A stretch of 64,000 nt of DNA from Candidatus Tectimicrobiota bacterium (lineage in GTDB: Bacteria; JACPUC01): assembly GCA_016192455.1 (NCBI GenBank), contig JACPUC010000030.1:62001-126000 (forward strand), written 5' to 3'. The stretch's first letter is position 1. Every line of letters begins with the position of its first letter. This document shows positions 54,478 through 57,259 of this stretch, one piece after another. Made by a program: the position numbers and the translations under genes. The notes under the pieces are model-generated. The model worked only from the letters and a program-made list of their open reading frames with translations. It had not been told where the DNA came from and made no database searches.

Positions 54478-55065
54478 CTACTTCACCTCCGCGAGCAATT
54501 TCCTGAACAGCTTCAGCGACTCCTCGCCGTCCCACTGGCGGGGGCCGATGCCCATGCCGACGAGGTCGCCGCGGTGGTCGATGATGAAGGTGGTGGGGGT
54601 GCCCCGCACCATGTAGAGAATCTGCGCCGCCCCCTCCGGGTCGAGGAGGATTGGGAAGGGGATGGCGTGCTTCTTTACGAAGGGGGCCACCGCCGACTTC
54701 CCCTCGCGGTCGATGGCAACGCCCACCAGCACGAACTTGTCGTTCTTCAGGAGCTCCGACAGCTTGATGAGAGAGGCACGCTCTCGCGCGCAGTAGGGTC
54801 ACCAGGTGGCCCAGAAGTTGAGGAGCATCACCTTGCCCTTGAAGTCGCTCAGCTTCACCGTCTTGTCGTCGAGGTTCGGCAGCGCCACGTCCGGCGCCTG
54901 GATGCCGGGCGGCGCCGGGTGCAGACCGAGCGCGCCCAGCTCCTCCTTGTAGGGGTTCTCCGGAGTCGGCGGGGTCTCGGCGACCGCGCGCCGGCCAAGC
55001 AGGGCGAACGCGAGCAGCACGGCACACGCTACCAGAATGACGTTACGCCGCTGCACTGATGCCAT
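54478..55065 (-). CDS. TlpA/ResA-like redoxin, putative selenoprotein (WATW-U-PYC, TGA 54801-54799)
   Basis: Two ORF-track pieces join in frame to 195 aa: APDVAL...KGKVMLLNFWATW*PYC..E...GTPTTFIID; SECIS-like hairpin 54771-54785. Confidence 0.9.
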
Positions 55066-55316
55066 GAGATGCTCCTTCAACCCCGTTTCGTTCCAACCCG
55101 CCCATACAGGCCCTCGACATCGACTTGCGGCGTGGCGACGCGCGCCGCGCAAGCTTGATTCCTACCGGGCAACGCGGTCAGGCGCTGAGGTATTCCCCCA
55201 CCGCCGGGGCCCCGCCGCGGCAGGGGCCCGCCTCCACCTGGATGCCGCAGCGCGGCGGGCGCGTCTGCCTTCAGGATGAGCCGGCGGGGTCCGGGGCGGC
55301 GCGGTCGCCACGCGGC

Positions 55317-55910
55317 TCAATGCAGGGATTTCGGCCCCACGCGGATCACCGTCATCATGAGGTCGTCCTCGCCGATGCTCTTGATGGTGTGCCGCCAGTT
55401 CGTGGGGACGGTGAACCAGGAACCGGCCGGAACGGCTTTCACGACCTCCCCCTTGGCATCCATCAAAAGCCCCAGGCCCTGCTCGATGTAGCAAATCTCC
55501 GTGGTGCTCATGATCCCCACATTTCCCCCGTTGGGGATGCGCGCCTTGCGGACGGAGAACCAGACGTCATTGCCGAAGTCGACCTTGGCGATGAGCTTCG
55601 CAAAGAACTTCTCTCCCATGCCGGTCGGCTGAAAGGGGAGGGCTTCATCGGGAAGCACGACCTGCTTCTCGAAGCTGCTGATGAGGAGGTCGGGGTCGGG
55701 CACCTTGCCCATCTCCATCGTAGGCATTGGTGGTGTGCGCATCGGTTGCCCGGCGTCGGGTTGCATGCTCTGCATCGGCTGCTGCATCGGCATGGACGAG
55801 GGCGCGCCCGGTTGTCTGCGCGGCATGCTCGGCATTCCCTGCGCCAAGACGCCCGCGGAGCCGAGCCACACCACGAGCATTCCCACCACACTCGCGAGAA
55901 CCCCCCTCAT
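55317..55910 (-). CDS. Exported cupin-domain protein with Met/Gln/Pro-rich N-terminal region
   Basis: Signal peptide; MPSMP..MPMQQPMQSMQ..MRTPPMPTMEM; cupin motif 2 GSWFTVPTNWRH. Confidence 0.75.
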   Translation of the reverse strand: MRGVLASVVGMLVVWLGSAGVLAQGMPSMPRRQPGAPSSMPMQQPMQSMQPDAGQPMRTPPMPTMEMGKVPDPDLLISSFEKQVVLPDEALPFQPTGMGEKFFAKLIAKVDFGNDVWFSVRKARIPNGGNVGIMSTTEICYIEQGLGLLMDAKGEVVKAVPAGSWFTVPTNWRHTIKSIGEDDLMMTVIRVGPKSLH

Positions 55911-55961
55911 GGTCTCCCCTCCTACTGGAGCCACGGGCCGCCGCCGGCCGCGTCGCCTCGG

Positions 55962-56282
55962 TTACTCTCCGGCGGGTTTCTCCGCGGCCCCTCCGGGATC
56001 GCTGGACAGAACGCCGGCCCGGAACCCCACGGACCTGAGGGCGGCGATCATCTGCGCCGCGCCGACGCGGGCTGGGTCGAATGCCACCTCGGCCTTCGCC
56101 TCGCGCAAGCTCACCTGCGCCTTCTCAACTCCGTCGAGCCTCTCCAAGGCTCGTTGAGCGATGATCACTCACGTCCCTCACGTCAGCCCCTCGACGCGCA
56201 GGCTCAGGTTCTCCGCCAGCGCGGCGGCGCTGCCGAGACCGAGGATGCTGGCCGCCAAGAGCAGCGTGACCCAGGTGCGCAT
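55962..56282 (-). CDS. Exported MerP/CopZ-like HMA chaperone, putative double selenoprotein (GLT-U-GT-U)
   Basis: MRTWVTLLLAASILGLGSAAALA-ENLSLRVEGLT*GT*VIIAQRALERLDGVEKAQVSL...; TGA at 56180-56178 and 56171-56169; hairpin 56135-56153. Confidence 0.88.
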
Positions 56283-56284
56283 GC

Positions 56285-56569
56285 TCACTCCTCCCTCTCC
56301 AGGGCGAAGACGCCGTAGGCATGCAGCAGGCGAAACGTCTCGCCGCAGTGCTCGAGGCGGTCGCCCGCGGCGGCCTCATCCGGCAGGGTGAGCATGGTCC
56401 CGCACGCCGGACAGCTCGCGCGCTTGACGATCATGAGGCCGTACCGACCGTGTCGCTCCGAAACTCGGAACAGGAGCCCGGCTCAGTTGGCGCACTCGAA
56501 GCCCTCGCCCGGGCGCGCCCGCGGCCCAAGCTCGACCTCTTGCCCTCAGCCAGGACAGAGCGCCTTCAT
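56285..56569 (-). CDS. Tandem zinc-ribbon protein, putative double selenoprotein (CPG-U ... CAN-U)
   Basis: GGAGG RBS; MKALCPG*GQEVELGPRARPGEGFECAN*AGLLFRVSERHGRYGLMIVKRASCPACGTMLTLPDEAAAGDRLEHCGETFRLLHAYGVFALEREE; fills the gap between grx and HMA genes. Confidence 0.82.
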
Positions 56570-56600
56570 GCCGCCTCCCGATCAGGTGGGTACGTTGAAG

Positions 56601-56834
56601 CTACAGGTGCAGGAGCTGCTTCAGCCGCCCCAGGTCGAAGCCCACGACCACCTCGTCGTCCACTGTGATCACCGGCACGGCAAGCCGACCCGTCTTCGCC
56701 TTCAGCTCGGCGATGGCGCCTTGGTCCGCTTCGACGTTCCGCTCCACGAAGGCGATCTGGTTCTGTGAAAGGAACTCTTTCACCTGTTTGCAGGGCCTTC
56801 ACGTAGGGCTGGTAAAGACCATGACGTTGGGCAT
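56601..56834 (-). CDS. Glutaredoxin/NrdH-like protein, putative selenoprotein (U-RP-C)
   Basis: MPNVMVFTSPT*RPCKQVKEFL...AVPVITVDDEVVVGFD; TGA 56801-56799; hairpin 56765-56783. Confidence 0.92.
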
Positions 56835-56875
56835 CGTTCTCCCTCCCTATGAATTACGGCTGGCGAGGCAGATCC

Positions 56876-57259
56876 TCAGTTCATCGCGCCTTGCAGCAGC
56901 GCGGCGGTTGCGTCCGGGAAGAGATCGAGCGCCAGCGCCGCCAGCAGCGCCAGGGTGGCGCCCAGCAGCATAACGAGGTTGAGGCGCGCCCCGATGAAGC
57001 GGCATGCCACCGCGCGGCAGCGTCGGCGCTCCCTGAAGTATAACGCATACGAGCCAAGAACTCCGAACACGCCGGCTGGCAGGAAGATGGAACGGTACTG
57101 CATCGTCGTGCCCATGAACGCCCCTGTCCCAAGCCCCGTGAGCACGACGAGAAGCGGCAGGACGCAGCAGAGCGAGGCGACGAAGGCCGCCCCTAGGCTC
57201 ACCGCGCCCACTCCGAAAGCGCGCAGGCACTCTCGACCGGCATGCAGGGATACTCTCAT
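56876..57259 (-). CDS. MerT-like mercuric/soft-metal transport protein
   Basis: ASLCCVLPL in TM1, second Cys pair CRAVAC in a loop, three TM segments. Confidence 0.8.
   Translation of the reverse strand: MRVSLHAGRECLRAFGVGAVSLGAAFVASLCCVLPLLVVLTGLGTGAFMGTTMQYRSIFLPAGVFGVLGSYALYFRERRRCRAVACRFIGARLNLVMLLGATLALLAALALDLFPDATAALLQGAMN

What the first reader, a model, noticed from the sequence alone, without database searches (positions are those of the whole stretch)
56285..56569. Uncalled tandem zinc-ribbon protein with two CxxU motifs
Seen: a 94-aa ORF absent from the ORF track, with a GGAGG RBS and a stop 2 nt before the HMA start. Domain 1 is CPGU-x17-CANU; domain 2 is a related repeat CPAC-x17-HCG. 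The internal repeat therefore supplies its own Cys counterpart for the first TGA. Each TGA has a hairpin: 56508-56530 (weaker) and GTTCCGA-GTT-TCGGAGC at 56455-56471. The architecture resembles LysW/rubredoxin-like ribbons (by eye). Inference: an S2Se2 metal site acting as cytoplasmic metal sink, sensor or carrier; I know no described selenoprotein family like it.
Basis: partly seen in the sequence, partly recalled or inferred. Interest (0 to 1): 0.9.

Follow-up and report, generated by a model that had tools for sequence, protein, structure and literature searches.

The report
Two-selenocysteine tandem zinc-ribbon protein gene
A small uncalled gene encodes a double zinc-ribbon protein in which two conserved metal-binding cysteines are replaced by selenocysteine, and its relatives sit in a mercury-transport-like gene cassette rich in selenoproteins, so it looks like an unlisted selenoprotein family that handles soft metals.

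Summary
Window 56288-56569 (-) reads as a 94-aa protein only if the TGAs at codons 8 and 29 are decoded. Both TGAs fall on the only two invariant Cys columns of a real family. Three genes from two phylum-level lineages keep TGA there. SECIS-like hairpins follow the TGAs, and selA, selB and tRNA-Sec are present. A run from another study carries both TGAs unchanged.

Each half has the LysW-type zinc-ribbon fold. It is not a LysW carrier.

The gene lies next to a glutaredoxin-like gene in all 7 genome loci, with UxxC in every one. In 80 soil-metagenome loci the order is Grx(UxxC), ribbon, MerT-like, HMA(UxxU), with a MerR-type regulator and MerB/SaoL-like lyase upstream in the loci annotated.

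Most likely it is a cytoplasmic Cys2Sec2 soft-metal acceptor working with the Sec-glutaredoxin. This function is inferred, not shown. A redox-relay role is the main rival.

The family is absent from the 119-family inventory of 2026 and from Pfam and NCBIfam as a specific model.

The parts
56285..56569 (-). Tandem LysW-type zinc-ribbon selenoprotein gene. The CDS is 56288-56569 (94 aa), with the terminal TGA at 56285-56287.
   Evidence: translation. (homologues). (AF2 mean pLDDT 92.5).
56546..56548 (-). In-frame TGA, codon 8 (CPGU), read as Sec.
   Evidence: The aligned column is Cys/Sec in 31 of 31 rows that cover it. TGA also occurs here in G040:C245. Unchanged in runs X5 and X6.
56483..56485 (-). 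In-frame TGA, codon 29 (CANU), read as Sec.
   Evidence: The column is Cys/Sec in 35 of 35 rows. TGA occurs here in both G040 genes. Unchanged in run X6.
56507..56531 (-). SECIS-like hairpin after TGA1. It has 10 bp with one bulge and apical loop GGGC, and starts 14 nt after the TGA.
   Evidence: The local MFE is -19.1, against a mean of -14.1 (sd 3.2) for Cys-form genes.
56455..56471 (-). SECIS-like hairpin after TGA2: GUUCCGA-GUU-UCGGAGC, starting 11 nt after the TGA.
   Evidence: A perfect stem of at least 6 bp with a G-first loop occurs in 3 of 3 Sec forms and 0 of 61 distinct Cys forms.
56574..56579 (-). Shine-Dalgarno-like GGGAGG, 4 nt before the ATG.
   Evidence: read directly.
56601..56834 (-). 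Glutaredoxin-like selenoprotein (TUrpC; Sec12 at 56799-56801), the conserved partner gene.
   Evidence: Pfam Glutaredoxin 64.2 bits. TIGR02196 74.1 bits, below its cut-off of 88.55. Adjacent in all 7 genome loci.
56876..57259 (-). MerT-like membrane protein, with CC in TM1 and a CxxxxC pair in the loop after TM2. No Sec.
   Evidence: weak MerT matches, 17 and 26.5 bits, below the cut-offs. Conserved in the cassette.
55962..56282 (-). Secreted HMA-domain metal-binding selenoprotein (GLTUGTU).
   Evidence: Pfam HMA 40.9 bits. NF041115 UxxU_metal_bind 108.5 bits, above its cut-off of 95.
55317..55910 (-). Secreted protein with a Met-rich N-terminal stretch and a weak cupin-like C-terminus, in the same operon.
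   Evidence: Only weak Pfam cupin matches. No NCBIfam match.
54478..55065 (-). TlpA/redoxin-like thiol:disulfide oxidoreductase selenoprotein (WUPYC), the last gene of the operon.
   Evidence: AhpC-TSA 96 bits and Redoxin 91.2 bits.

Best explanation
The locus encodes a genuine 94-aa cytoplasmic selenoprotein built from two LysW-type zinc ribbons. In the first ribbon the four-Cys knuckle site (CPxC...CxxC in most relatives) has the second residue of each knuckle recoded to selenocysteine, which would give a Cys2Sec2 site.

The protein is a fixed partner of a Sec-containing (UxxC) YruB/NrdH-like glutaredoxin. Together they form the cytoplasmic half of a conserved cassette. The membrane and periplasmic half is a MerT-like transporter plus a secreted HMA protein with UxxU.

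Most likely mechanism (inferred): a soft metal ion, Hg(II)-like or possibly Cu(I), Ag(I) or Cd(II), is captured outside by the UxxU HMA protein and passed through the Cys pairs of the MerT-like protein. It is then received in the cytoplasm by the ribbon's S2Se2 site. In this the ribbon plays the role that the N-terminal HMA domain of MerA plays in classical mer systems (that role is recalled knowledge). The selenolate of the glutaredoxin then loads or unloads the site by ligand exchange, or keeps it reduced.

My estimates of likelihood:
- The gene is real and Sec-decoded: about 0.9.
- LysW-type tandem ribbon fold: about 0.9.
- Core member of the Grx/MerT-like/HMA cassette: about 0.85.
- The metal-acceptor mechanism itself: about 0.45.
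For: Sec decoding:
- The frame is open only with TGA=U.
- 62 homologues at E<=1e-3. Full-length ones have Cys at both TGA positions.
- The two TGA columns are the only invariant Cys columns, 31 of 31 and 35 of 35.
- Two G040 genes keep TGA there.
- The Sec forms are scattered among Cys forms on a tree. Three changes are needed and at least 2 are forced by supported branches. 32 of 47 rows were used; rows under 84 aa were dropped.
- A G-first-loop hairpin 7-10 nt after TGA2 occurs in 3 of 3 Sec forms and 0 of 61 Cys forms.
- selB scores 366 bits, selA 596 bits and tRNA-Sec 75.5 bits, all above their cut-offs.
- The TGAs are unchanged in runs of other studies.

Fold:
- 30 of 30 aligned members hit PF21344 at E<=0.01.
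- NF041070 matches at 8.8e-13 in two stretches.
- The PDB profile search finds LysW best: 3vpb_E at 2.7e-5, with Cys aligned to the LysW knuckles.
- AF2 gives pLDDT 92.5.
- LysW tops Foldseek (TMt 0.69) and VIA (Z 7.5 and 6.5, next 3.8).

Context:
- The Grx-like gene lies within 67 nt in 7 of 7 genome loci, always with UxxC.
- In 80 soil-metagenome loci, 75 have the Grx gene directly upstream. The other 5 have the ribbon at the locus edge.
- Of 82 loci with a Grx hit, 75 show UxxC, 7 lack the N-terminus in the hit, and none shows CxxC.
- MerT-like with CC: 71 of 76. HMA with UxxU: 66 of 68.
- Upstream lie metal-type MerR regulators (133 and 126 bits to TIGR02051, just below its cut-off) and MerB/SaoL-like lyases with an in-frame TGA at the position that, by my own comparison with the MerB sequence as I recall it, corresponds to MerB Cys159.
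- The window operon adds a Met-rich secreted protein and a TlpA-like Sec redoxin.
Against: - No experiment or expression data exist, and no RNA holder was listed.
- The hairpin energies are not better than shuffles.
- No MerA above its cut-off and no MerB-like gene was found in this genome, which is 88% complete, so a complete mercury pathway is not evident.
- Four of the 7 genome loci have the Grx-ribbon pair without MerT-like or HMA nearby, so the core function may be more general than metal import.
- CxxU is a classic redox motif.
- The 80 soil loci come from one subgroup and were found with a pattern that requires Cys at position 29. They are neither independent nor informative on how frequent Sec is.
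- The target itself scores below the curated cut-offs of the LysW models (25.4 against 27 bits, and 48.1 against 75 bits).
Confidence: 0.55

Rival explanations
1. Redox relay rather than metal carrier. The two CxxU knuckles cycle between selenol/thiol and selenenylsulfide or diselenide. The ribbon is a substrate of, or electron donor to, the Sec-glutaredoxin. It feeds reducing equivalents via the Cys pairs of the MerT-like protein to the periplasmic UxxU HMA and the TlpA-like UxxC proteins, in the manner of DsbD/CcdA.
For: - CxxU and UxxC are typical redox motifs, and reviews assign most such selenoproteins redox roles (Table 1 and text).
- The partner is always a UxxC glutaredoxin-fold protein.
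- TlpA-like redoxins follow in the window and in G103.
- Four of 7 genome loci have the pair without MerT-like or HMA.
- Repeated Cys/Sec exchange is the signature used to flag reactive Cys.
Against: - The four residues align with the Zn-ligand knuckles of LysW, and the fold is a zinc ribbon.
- The cassette's regulator, lyase, transporter and HMA are all metal-type.
- No reductase that could feed the relay was seen among the neighbours annotated.
Confidence: 0.25
2. A structural zinc-ribbon adaptor or regulator. The ribbons bind Zn only to fold, and the protein scaffolds or regulates the Grx or the MerT-like protein (or a sigma factor or DNA) without touching the substrate. On this view Sec is a neutral or merely stabilising replacement.
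For: - Most family members are all-Cys.
- Small zinc ribbons are often interaction modules.
- One G040 copy is followed by a long open frame that I read by eye as an ECF sigma factor. It was not scanned against any family library.
Against: - Sec is costly.
- Sec sits exactly on the two invariant Cys columns.
- It was gained or lost at least twice.
- Ribbon 2 tolerates loss of its ligands (for example P0035; position 75 is variable), while the ribbon 1 ligands are kept. This points to a working site in ribbon 1.
Confidence: 0.1
3. Not a selenoprotein. The TGAs are true stops, or sequencing or assembly errors. Only the 49-aa second ribbon (56285-56434) is made, and the upstream part is a decayed remnant.
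For: - Standard ORF calling gives only the 49-aa ORF.
- Several database relatives are roughly 60-aa C-terminal fragments.
- The hairpin energies are not significant against shuffles.
Against: - The same TGAs are seen in runs from other studies.
- TGA sits at the same invariant Cys columns in three genes of two lineages.
- The region between and before the TGAs is conserved at protein level (42% identity over residues 2-93 with a Cys form, E 2e-21).
- The SECIS-like hairpin is specific to the Sec forms.
- The Sec machinery is present.
- Three neighbouring genes also need TGA=Sec.
Confidence: 0.05
4. A LysW/ArgW-type amino-group carrier protein for lysine or arginine biosynthesis.
For: The best family and structure matches are to LysW.
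Against: - Scores are below the curated cut-offs.
- The architecture is tandem.
- There is no conserved acidic C-terminal tail; the ends are EREE, APK, IEG or simply ALE.
- The neighbours are Grx, MerT-like and HMA. No ATP-grasp or lysine-pathway gene was among those identified.
Confidence: 0.02

Closest known systems
LysW/ArgW alpha-aminoadipate/glutamate carrier protein (PF21344, NF041070, TIGR01206; PDB 3vpb, 3wwl, 5k2m)
   Same: Each half has the LysW globular zinc-ribbon fold and the CPxCG...CxxC knuckle pattern. LysW is the only clear structural and sequence match.
   Different: - Two ribbons in tandem instead of one.
- No acidic carrier tail and no conserved C-terminal Glu.
- No lysine or arginine pathway neighbours.
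- Sec in the knuckles.
- Scores are below the family cut-offs.
FmdB-family zinc-ribbon putative regulatory protein, Sec forms (TIGR02605/Zn_ribbon_8; GOS survey 2008; listed with 2 Sec in the 2026 inventory)
   Same: A small zinc-ribbon protein in which knuckle Cys are replaced by Sec. It was predicted from Cys/Sec pairs and SECIS elements (passages, Table 1).
   Different: A different ribbon family: the target scores E 0.87 and 9.7 bits against a cut-off of 31.3. It has a single ribbon, a marine origin, and no reported Grx/MerT/HMA cassette in the passages I read.
NF041197 CxxC_Se_CxxC 'dual CXXC motif small (seleno)protein' (OS_HP3 / hypothetical protein DW)
   Same: A small protein with two CxxC-type motifs and Sec (Table 1).
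   Different: Not homologous. It gave no hit to the target at E<=1. The model finds nothing at the locus in the whole genome; its best hit is E 0.3 elsewhere. It has one Sec, in an RxU or GxU motif.
N-terminal HMA domain of mercuric reductase (NmerA) and MerP/MerT relay of mer operons
   Same: The proposed working analogy is a cytoplasmic Cys-rich acceptor for metal handed over by MerT (and MerB). The cassette has MerT-like, MerP-like HMA, MerR-type and MerB-like genes. The role of NmerA is recalled knowledge, not a call.
   Different: - The fold is unrelated: a zinc ribbon, not the ferredoxin-like HMA fold.
- It is not fused to a reductase.
- No MerA was found in the cassette or above its cut-off in the genome.
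- It is paired with a Sec-glutaredoxin.
NF041115 UxxU metal-binding (seleno)protein and Sec-glutaredoxin (PF00462 UxxC), known selenoprotein families
   Same: They are the neighbours of the target and fellow cassette members, and both are already in the inventory.
   Different: The ribbon is a separate, unlisted family. These two are Sec forms in nearly all cassettes seen, whereas the ribbon is usually all-Cys.

Membership tests
Bacterial selenoprotein (criteria used in the Zhang/Gladyshev surveys, passages) | An in-frame TGA with the ORF continuing on both sides. | tested here: met
Bacterial selenoprotein | At least two Cys-containing homologues with Cys aligned to the TGA. | tested here: met
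   31 of 31 and 35 of 35 rows have Cys/Sec in the two columns.
Bacterial selenoprotein | [quoted passage not shown] | tested here: met
   The window plus G040:C64 (TGA2) and G040:C245 (TGA1 and TGA2).
Bacterial selenoprotein | A SECIS-like stem-loop with G in the apical loop just downstream of the TGA. | tested here: met
   At TGA2, 3 of 3 Sec forms have it against 0 of 61 Cys forms. At TGA1 a bulged hairpin with loop GGGC is present, with weaker statistics. No Rfam match was found.
Bacterial selenoprotein | The Sec insertion machinery is present in the genome. | tested here: met
   selB, selA and tRNA-Sec all score above their cut-offs. selD was not searched.
Bacterial selenoprotein | Selenium is incorporated into the protein. 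| not testable with these tools
   This needs 75Se labelling or mass spectrometry.
LysW/ArgW carrier protein | A LysW-type zinc-ribbon globular domain. | tested here: met
   PF21344 is hit by 30 of 30 members at E<=0.01. VIA gives Z 7.5 to 3vpb. The window protein itself scores 25.4 bits, below the gathering score of 27.
LysW/ArgW carrier protein | A score above the curated family cut-off (NF041070 75 bits; TIGR01206 53.2 bits). | tested here: not met
   48.1 and 12.3 bits.
LysW/ArgW carrier protein | A conserved acidic C-terminal tail with a terminal Glu for conjugation (feature recalled). | tested here: not met
   The C-termini vary (EREE, APK, IEG, ALE) after the conserved FGAFALE motif.
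LysW/ArgW carrier protein | Linkage to LysX/ArgX ATP-grasp and lysine-pathway genes (feature recalled). | tested here: not met
   The window neighbours are MerT-like, Grx, HMA, cupin-like and redoxin. The same partners recur in the other loci. The ATP-grasp family was not searched explicitly.
FmdB / Zn_ribbon_8 (TIGR02605) | A match to the family model. | tested here: not met
   E 0.87 and 9.7 bits against a cut-off of 31.3.
NF041197 CxxC_Se_CxxC | A match to the family model. | tested here: not met
   No hit at E<=1. The genome-wide search does not hit the locus.
Rubredoxin | A match to the Pfam rubredoxin model. | tested here: not met
   Rubredoxin is not among the best 25 of 35 Pfam families listed at E<=1. 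Iron binding cannot be excluded by sequence.
Rubredoxin | A spacer of about 29 residues between the two knuckles (feature recalled). | tested here: not met
   The spacer is 17 residues.

The most novel reading that the evidence does not exclude
A natural Cys2Sec2 (S2Se2) metal site in a LysW-fold zinc ribbon would be the cytoplasmic acceptor of a selenium-based, MerA-independent mercury or organomercury (or other soft-metal) handling pathway. The pathway would run from a secreted UxxU HMA protein through the MerT-like protein to the ribbon, with a MerB-like Sec lyase in the soil versions. A Sec-glutaredoxin would resolve or transfer the metal by selenolate ligand exchange. This would be a new class of metallochaperone and the first ribbon-type selenoprotein with a defined role.
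Probability: 0.3. Interest if true: 0.85.

Novelty: new variant of a known kind. Interest (0 to 1): 0.62.

Why it matters
- It adds a selenoprotein family with two Sec residues in a fold not listed for selenoproteins. It is not in the 119-family inventory of May 2026, nor a specific model in Pfam or NCBIfam. It shows that standard gene calling truncates this gene to a 49-aa fragment.
- It defines a conserved cassette of Grx(UxxC), tandem ribbon, MerT-like and HMA(UxxU), with a MerR-type regulator and MerB-like Sec lyase upstream in the soil loci annotated. At least 523 relatives were found in one metagenome scan. This gives a concrete, testable system for how bacteria use selenium to handle soft metals.
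- A genetically encoded S2Se2 knuckle site would interest bioinorganic chemists, who could probe it by 77Se, 199Hg or 113Cd spectroscopy.
- The Cys forms give a ready control for every experiment.

Tried and rejected
- The search for homologous proteins with the U-to-C protein found 1 candidate and none scored. The exhaustive HMMER search was needed.
- The search for related loci with the 30-row alignment failed because no stretch was conserved enough.
- The first metagenome scan, with the window's nearest relatives, matched 87 patterns and confirmed none.
I therefore have no organism names for genome hits and no broad census of Sec against Cys forms.
- Phylum-level searches around G000, G040, G087 and G172 covered only 1-3 genomes each.
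- No plasmid match was found for a Cys homologue.
- No Rfam family matched the region; the best hits were noise.
- No RNA holder was listed among the sequencing runs, so there is nothing on expression.
For a natural Cys homologue it only returned automatically named LysW-like clusters, with few taxon labels (Rokuibacteriota/Methylomirabilota), which is a lead only.
- The Haft & Tolstoy 2025 paper is not held, and supplements are closed. A mention of this family there cannot be excluded.
- Paper searches for selenoprotein with 'zinc ribbon', and for selenocysteine with LysW, gave nothing relevant.
- Source names for relatives are only 'hypothetical protein' or 'uncharacterized paraquat-inducible protein A'.
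- The LysW-carrier, rubredoxin, FmdB and NF041197 memberships were considered and rejected (see Membership tests).
Full report
**1. The observation**

The minus strand of window 56285-56569 reads, with TGA=U, as a 94-aa protein with U8 and U29:
MKALCPGUGQEVELGPRARPGEGFECANUAGLLFRVSERHGRYGLMIVKRASCPACGTMLTLPDEAAAGDRLEHCGETFRLLHAYGVFALEREE

Table 11 ORF listing shows only the 49-aa tail, 56285..56434. A GGGAGG lies 4 nt before the ATG. The terminal TGA lies 2 nt before the ATG of the next gene. Every sequence statement is therefore correct. The fold energies by themselves are not better than dinucleotide shuffles (z -0.87 and -0.03), so the case has to rest on comparative evidence.

**2. It is a real gene that needs Sec at both TGAs**

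- *Homologues.* An exhaustive HMMER search of 1.84 billion cluster representatives gave 62 proteins at E<=1e-3 and 30 at E<=1e-10. About thirty are full length (84-129 aa). They share the pattern CPxCG-x17-CxxCAG, then SCPxC-x17-(C/H)CG, then a C-terminal LTxE(F/Y)GA(F/Y)A(L/A)E.
- *Invariant columns.* In the 47-row alignment, the columns under U8 and U29 are the only ligand columns that are Cys/Sec in every row that covers them, 31 of 31 and 35 of 35. The other six ligand positions each show exceptions.
- *Other Sec forms.* A six-frame search of 40 other genomes found two copies in G040. One is CPDC...CPNU and one is CPGU...CPNU. TGA therefore recurs at the same columns in a second phylum-level lineage.
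- *Repeated exchange.* On a maximum-likelihood tree the three Sec forms are scattered among Cys forms. The tree used 32 of 47 rows; 15 rows shorter than 84 aa were dropped. Three changes are needed and at least two are forced by supported branches. Cys/Sec exchange therefore happened repeatedly.
- *SECIS at TGA2.* All 3 Sec forms have a perfect stem of 6-9 bp with a 3-4 nt apical loop that begins with G (GUU, GGC, GGUU), starting 7-10 nt after the codon. The stem sequences differ between the three genes. None of 61 distinct Cys-form sequences has such a hairpin there. Most of those Cys forms are one soil clade.
- *SECIS at TGA1.* The two Sec forms fold to -19.1 and -23.4 kcal/mol, against a mean of -14.1 (sd 3.2) for Cys forms. 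Each has a bulged hairpin with a G-first loop.
- *Sec machinery.* The genome has selB (366 bits), selA (596 bits) and tRNA-Sec (75.5 bits), all above their curated cut-offs.
- *Independent reads.* Logan contigs of run X6, from another study, cover 56390-56568 with no difference, so they carry both TGAs. A roughly 98%-identical soil contig (X5) covers TGA1 unchanged. Its nearest variant is 56543 C>G, the third base of the following Gly codon, which is synonymous in the proposed frame.
- *Neighbours.* Three neighbouring genes also require TGA=Sec and are well-known selenoprotein types.

**3. What the protein is**

- All 30 rows of the first alignment match Pfam Zn_ribbon_LysW at E<=0.01, best 1.8e-10.
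- The window protein matches NCBIfam LysW/ArgW at 8.8e-13 in two stretches, but at 48.1 bits against a cut-off of 75. It matches Pfam at 25.4 bits against 27.
- A profile search of PDB sequences puts LysW first (3vpb_E, 2.7e-5). The ribbon-1 Cys align to the CPxC...CPxC knuckles of a second LysW chain, 5k2m_E.
- AlphaFold2 on the 47-row alignment gives an all-beta model with mean pLDDT 92.5.
- LysW is the top Foldseek hit (TMt 0.69, rmsd 2.3 over 50 columns).
- LysW stands alone in the Foldseek-independent VIA search, with Z 7.5 and 6.5 against 3.8 for the next hit.

The protein is therefore a tandem of two LysW-type ribbons. It is not a LysW carrier. There is no conserved acidic tail, the C-termini vary, and no lysine-pathway genes lie nearby. 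Ribbon 2 tolerates loss of its ligands in some members, while the ribbon 1 ligands are kept. The working site is in ribbon 1, which is where Sec occurs.

**4. Context**

The window operon on the minus strand contains six genes, in this order:
- MerT-like (56876-57259).
- Grx-like, TUxxC (56601-56834).
- The ribbon.
- A secreted HMA protein with UGTU (55962-56282). It scores 108.5 bits to NF041115, at or above its cut-off of 95.
- A secreted Met-rich, cupin-like protein (55317-55910).
- A TlpA/redoxin-like protein with WUPYC (54478-55065).

*Genome survey.* A profile search of 401 genomes gave 7 with a match at E<=1e-6. Six had full-length matches (G000, G040 with two copies, G087, G103, G172, G394). 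One was a weak partial match (G116). In all 7 genome loci a Grx-like gene lies within 67 nt of the ribbon, and in all 7 it has UxxC. G087 and G394 also carry MerT-like and HMA(UxxU). G103 has a TlpA-like gene next door.

Of these, 523 were confirmed and 80 were kept.
- 75 of the 80 have the Grx gene directly upstream. The other 5 have the ribbon at the locus edge.
- Over all 82 loci with a Grx hit, 75 show UxxC, 7 lack the N-terminus in the hit, and none shows CxxC.
- The MerT-like protein has CC in 71 of 76 loci. HMA has UxxU in 66 of 68.
- In the longer soil loci that I annotated, upstream genes include a divergent metal-type MerR regulator (133 and 126 bits to TIGR02051, just below its cut-off). 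They also include a MerB/SaoL-like lyase (63-67 bits, below its cut-off).
- That lyase's frame continues through a TGA at the position that, by my own comparison with the MerB sequence as I recall it, corresponds to MerB Cys159.

These soil ribbons are all-Cys. The search pattern required Cys at position 29, so they say nothing about how frequent Sec is. They are also close kin.

**5. Mechanism**

Shown:
- Sec-type recoding signals.
- The fold.
- The invariant ligand columns.
- The conserved pairing with a Sec-glutaredoxin.
- The recurrent MerT-like/HMA(UxxU)/MerR/MerB-like company.

Inferred:
- The ribbon is the cytoplasmic acceptor of a soft metal delivered by the HMA and MerT-like relay, and by the lyase where one is present.
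- It binds the metal at the ribbon-1 site (S4 in most members, S2Se2 here).
- The selenolate of the Grx exchanges ligands with it.

The analogy is to the N-terminal HMA domain of MerA, which is recalled knowledge.

Against a complete mercury pathway: no MerA reaches its cut-off in this genome. The best hit is 374.5 bits against 454.45, and it is itself interrupted by one TGA. No MerB-like gene was found, in a genome that is 88% complete. Four of the 7 genome loci have only the Grx-ribbon pair.

The main rival is a redox relay, with CxxU/UxxC exchange feeding the periplasmic UxxU and UxxC proteins. Sequence data cannot decide between the two.

**6. Comparison with what is known, and novelty**

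I read the whole of Table 1 of the May 2026 inventory of prokaryotic selenoproteins (PMC13188914, section 7, parts 1 and 2). Its 119 families include the neighbours: Grx UxxC, NF041115 UxxU and Redoxin UxxC. They include no LysW-like or tandem-ribbon family.

The nearest entries are these:
- The FmdB zinc-ribbon family. It had 2 Sec sequences in GOS, and its CxxU motif was read there as redox-related (passages).
- NF041197, the 'dual CXXC motif small protein'.

The target matches neither model.

From the other papers I saw the following:
- The 2022 review (PMC9312934): two passages returned by a search for zinc, ribbon, LysW, rubredoxin, heavy metal and mercur-. It had no hit for zinc, ribbon or LysW.
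- The Haft & Gwadz preprint: four passages returned for MerT and glutaredoxin. It had no hit for zinc, ribbon or LysW.
- The 2007 Olavius symbiont paper: passages only.
- Haft & Tolstoy 2025 is not held, and supplements are closed, so a mention there cannot be excluded.
- Two full-text searches (selenoprotein with zinc ribbon and bacteria; selenocysteine with LysW) found nothing relevant.

Public sources name relatives only 'hypothetical protein' or 'uncharacterized paraquat-inducible protein A'.

I rate the finding as a new variant of a known kind. It is a new selenoprotein family and a newly delineated cassette, within the familiar class of Cys/Sec-exchanging bacterial selenoproteins in metal-related neighbourhoods.

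**7. Verdict**

The finding is real and worth follow-up. I put the probability that the gene is a Sec-decoded member of a real family at about 0.9, and the probability of the metal-acceptor mechanism at about 0.45. Interest is 0.62. It remains well above ordinary because of three features: the double Sec in a ribbon metal site, the obligate Sec-glutaredoxin partner, and the abundant, uncharacterised cassette.

Noticed in passing
window 54478-57259 (-): The six-gene operon has four selenoprotein genes carrying six in-frame TGA codons in all: Grx TUxxC, ribbon CxxU twice, HMA UxxU and redoxin WUxxC. Under table 11 each appears only as fragments.
   Followed up: yes
window 55317-55910 (-): A secreted protein has a strikingly Met-rich N-terminal stretch (many MxxM- and MP-type repeats) before a weak cupin-like domain. 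It has no NCBIfam match. The Met-rich stretch resembles periplasmic Cu(I)/Ag(I)-binding segments (resemblance recalled).
   Followed up: partly
L107:3085-3780, L059:3091-3780 (soil metagenome loci): A MerB/SaoL-like lyase lies upstream of the cassette. Its frame continues about 50 residues past a TGA that, by my own comparison with the MerB sequence as I recall it, sits at the position of MerB Cys159 (motif SLU, not the CU described for SaoL). This is probably a further Sec form of the MerB-like family.
   Followed up: partly
G000:C22:15159-16484 (+), outside the window: The best MerA-model hit in the genome (374.5 bits, below the cut-off of 454.45) contains one in-frame TGA. It may be a pyridine-nucleotide disulfide oxidoreductase selenoprotein.
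   Followed up: no
whole genome G000: The window's genome is the only one of its phylum among the genomes held. The carriers G040, G087 and G172 also belong to phyla with 2-3 genomes. The DNA is held by groundwater metagenome runs.
   Followed up: partly
L093:2406-2693 (+); L039:2276-2857 (-): Other thiol and selenoprotein-type genes lie near the cassette in relatives. In L093 there is an OsmC-related (seleno)protein (NF041052, 87.4 bits, below its cut-off of 95). In G040 there are frames beside the pair that I read by eye as a CMD/AhpD-like protein and a TetR regulator; these were not scanned.
   Followed up: no
P0046, P0055 (library proteins): Two database proteins join a Grx-like N-terminal part to ribbon sequence. 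They are probably gene-call or frameshift artefacts across the Grx-ribbon junction, but real fusions are not excluded.
   Followed up: no
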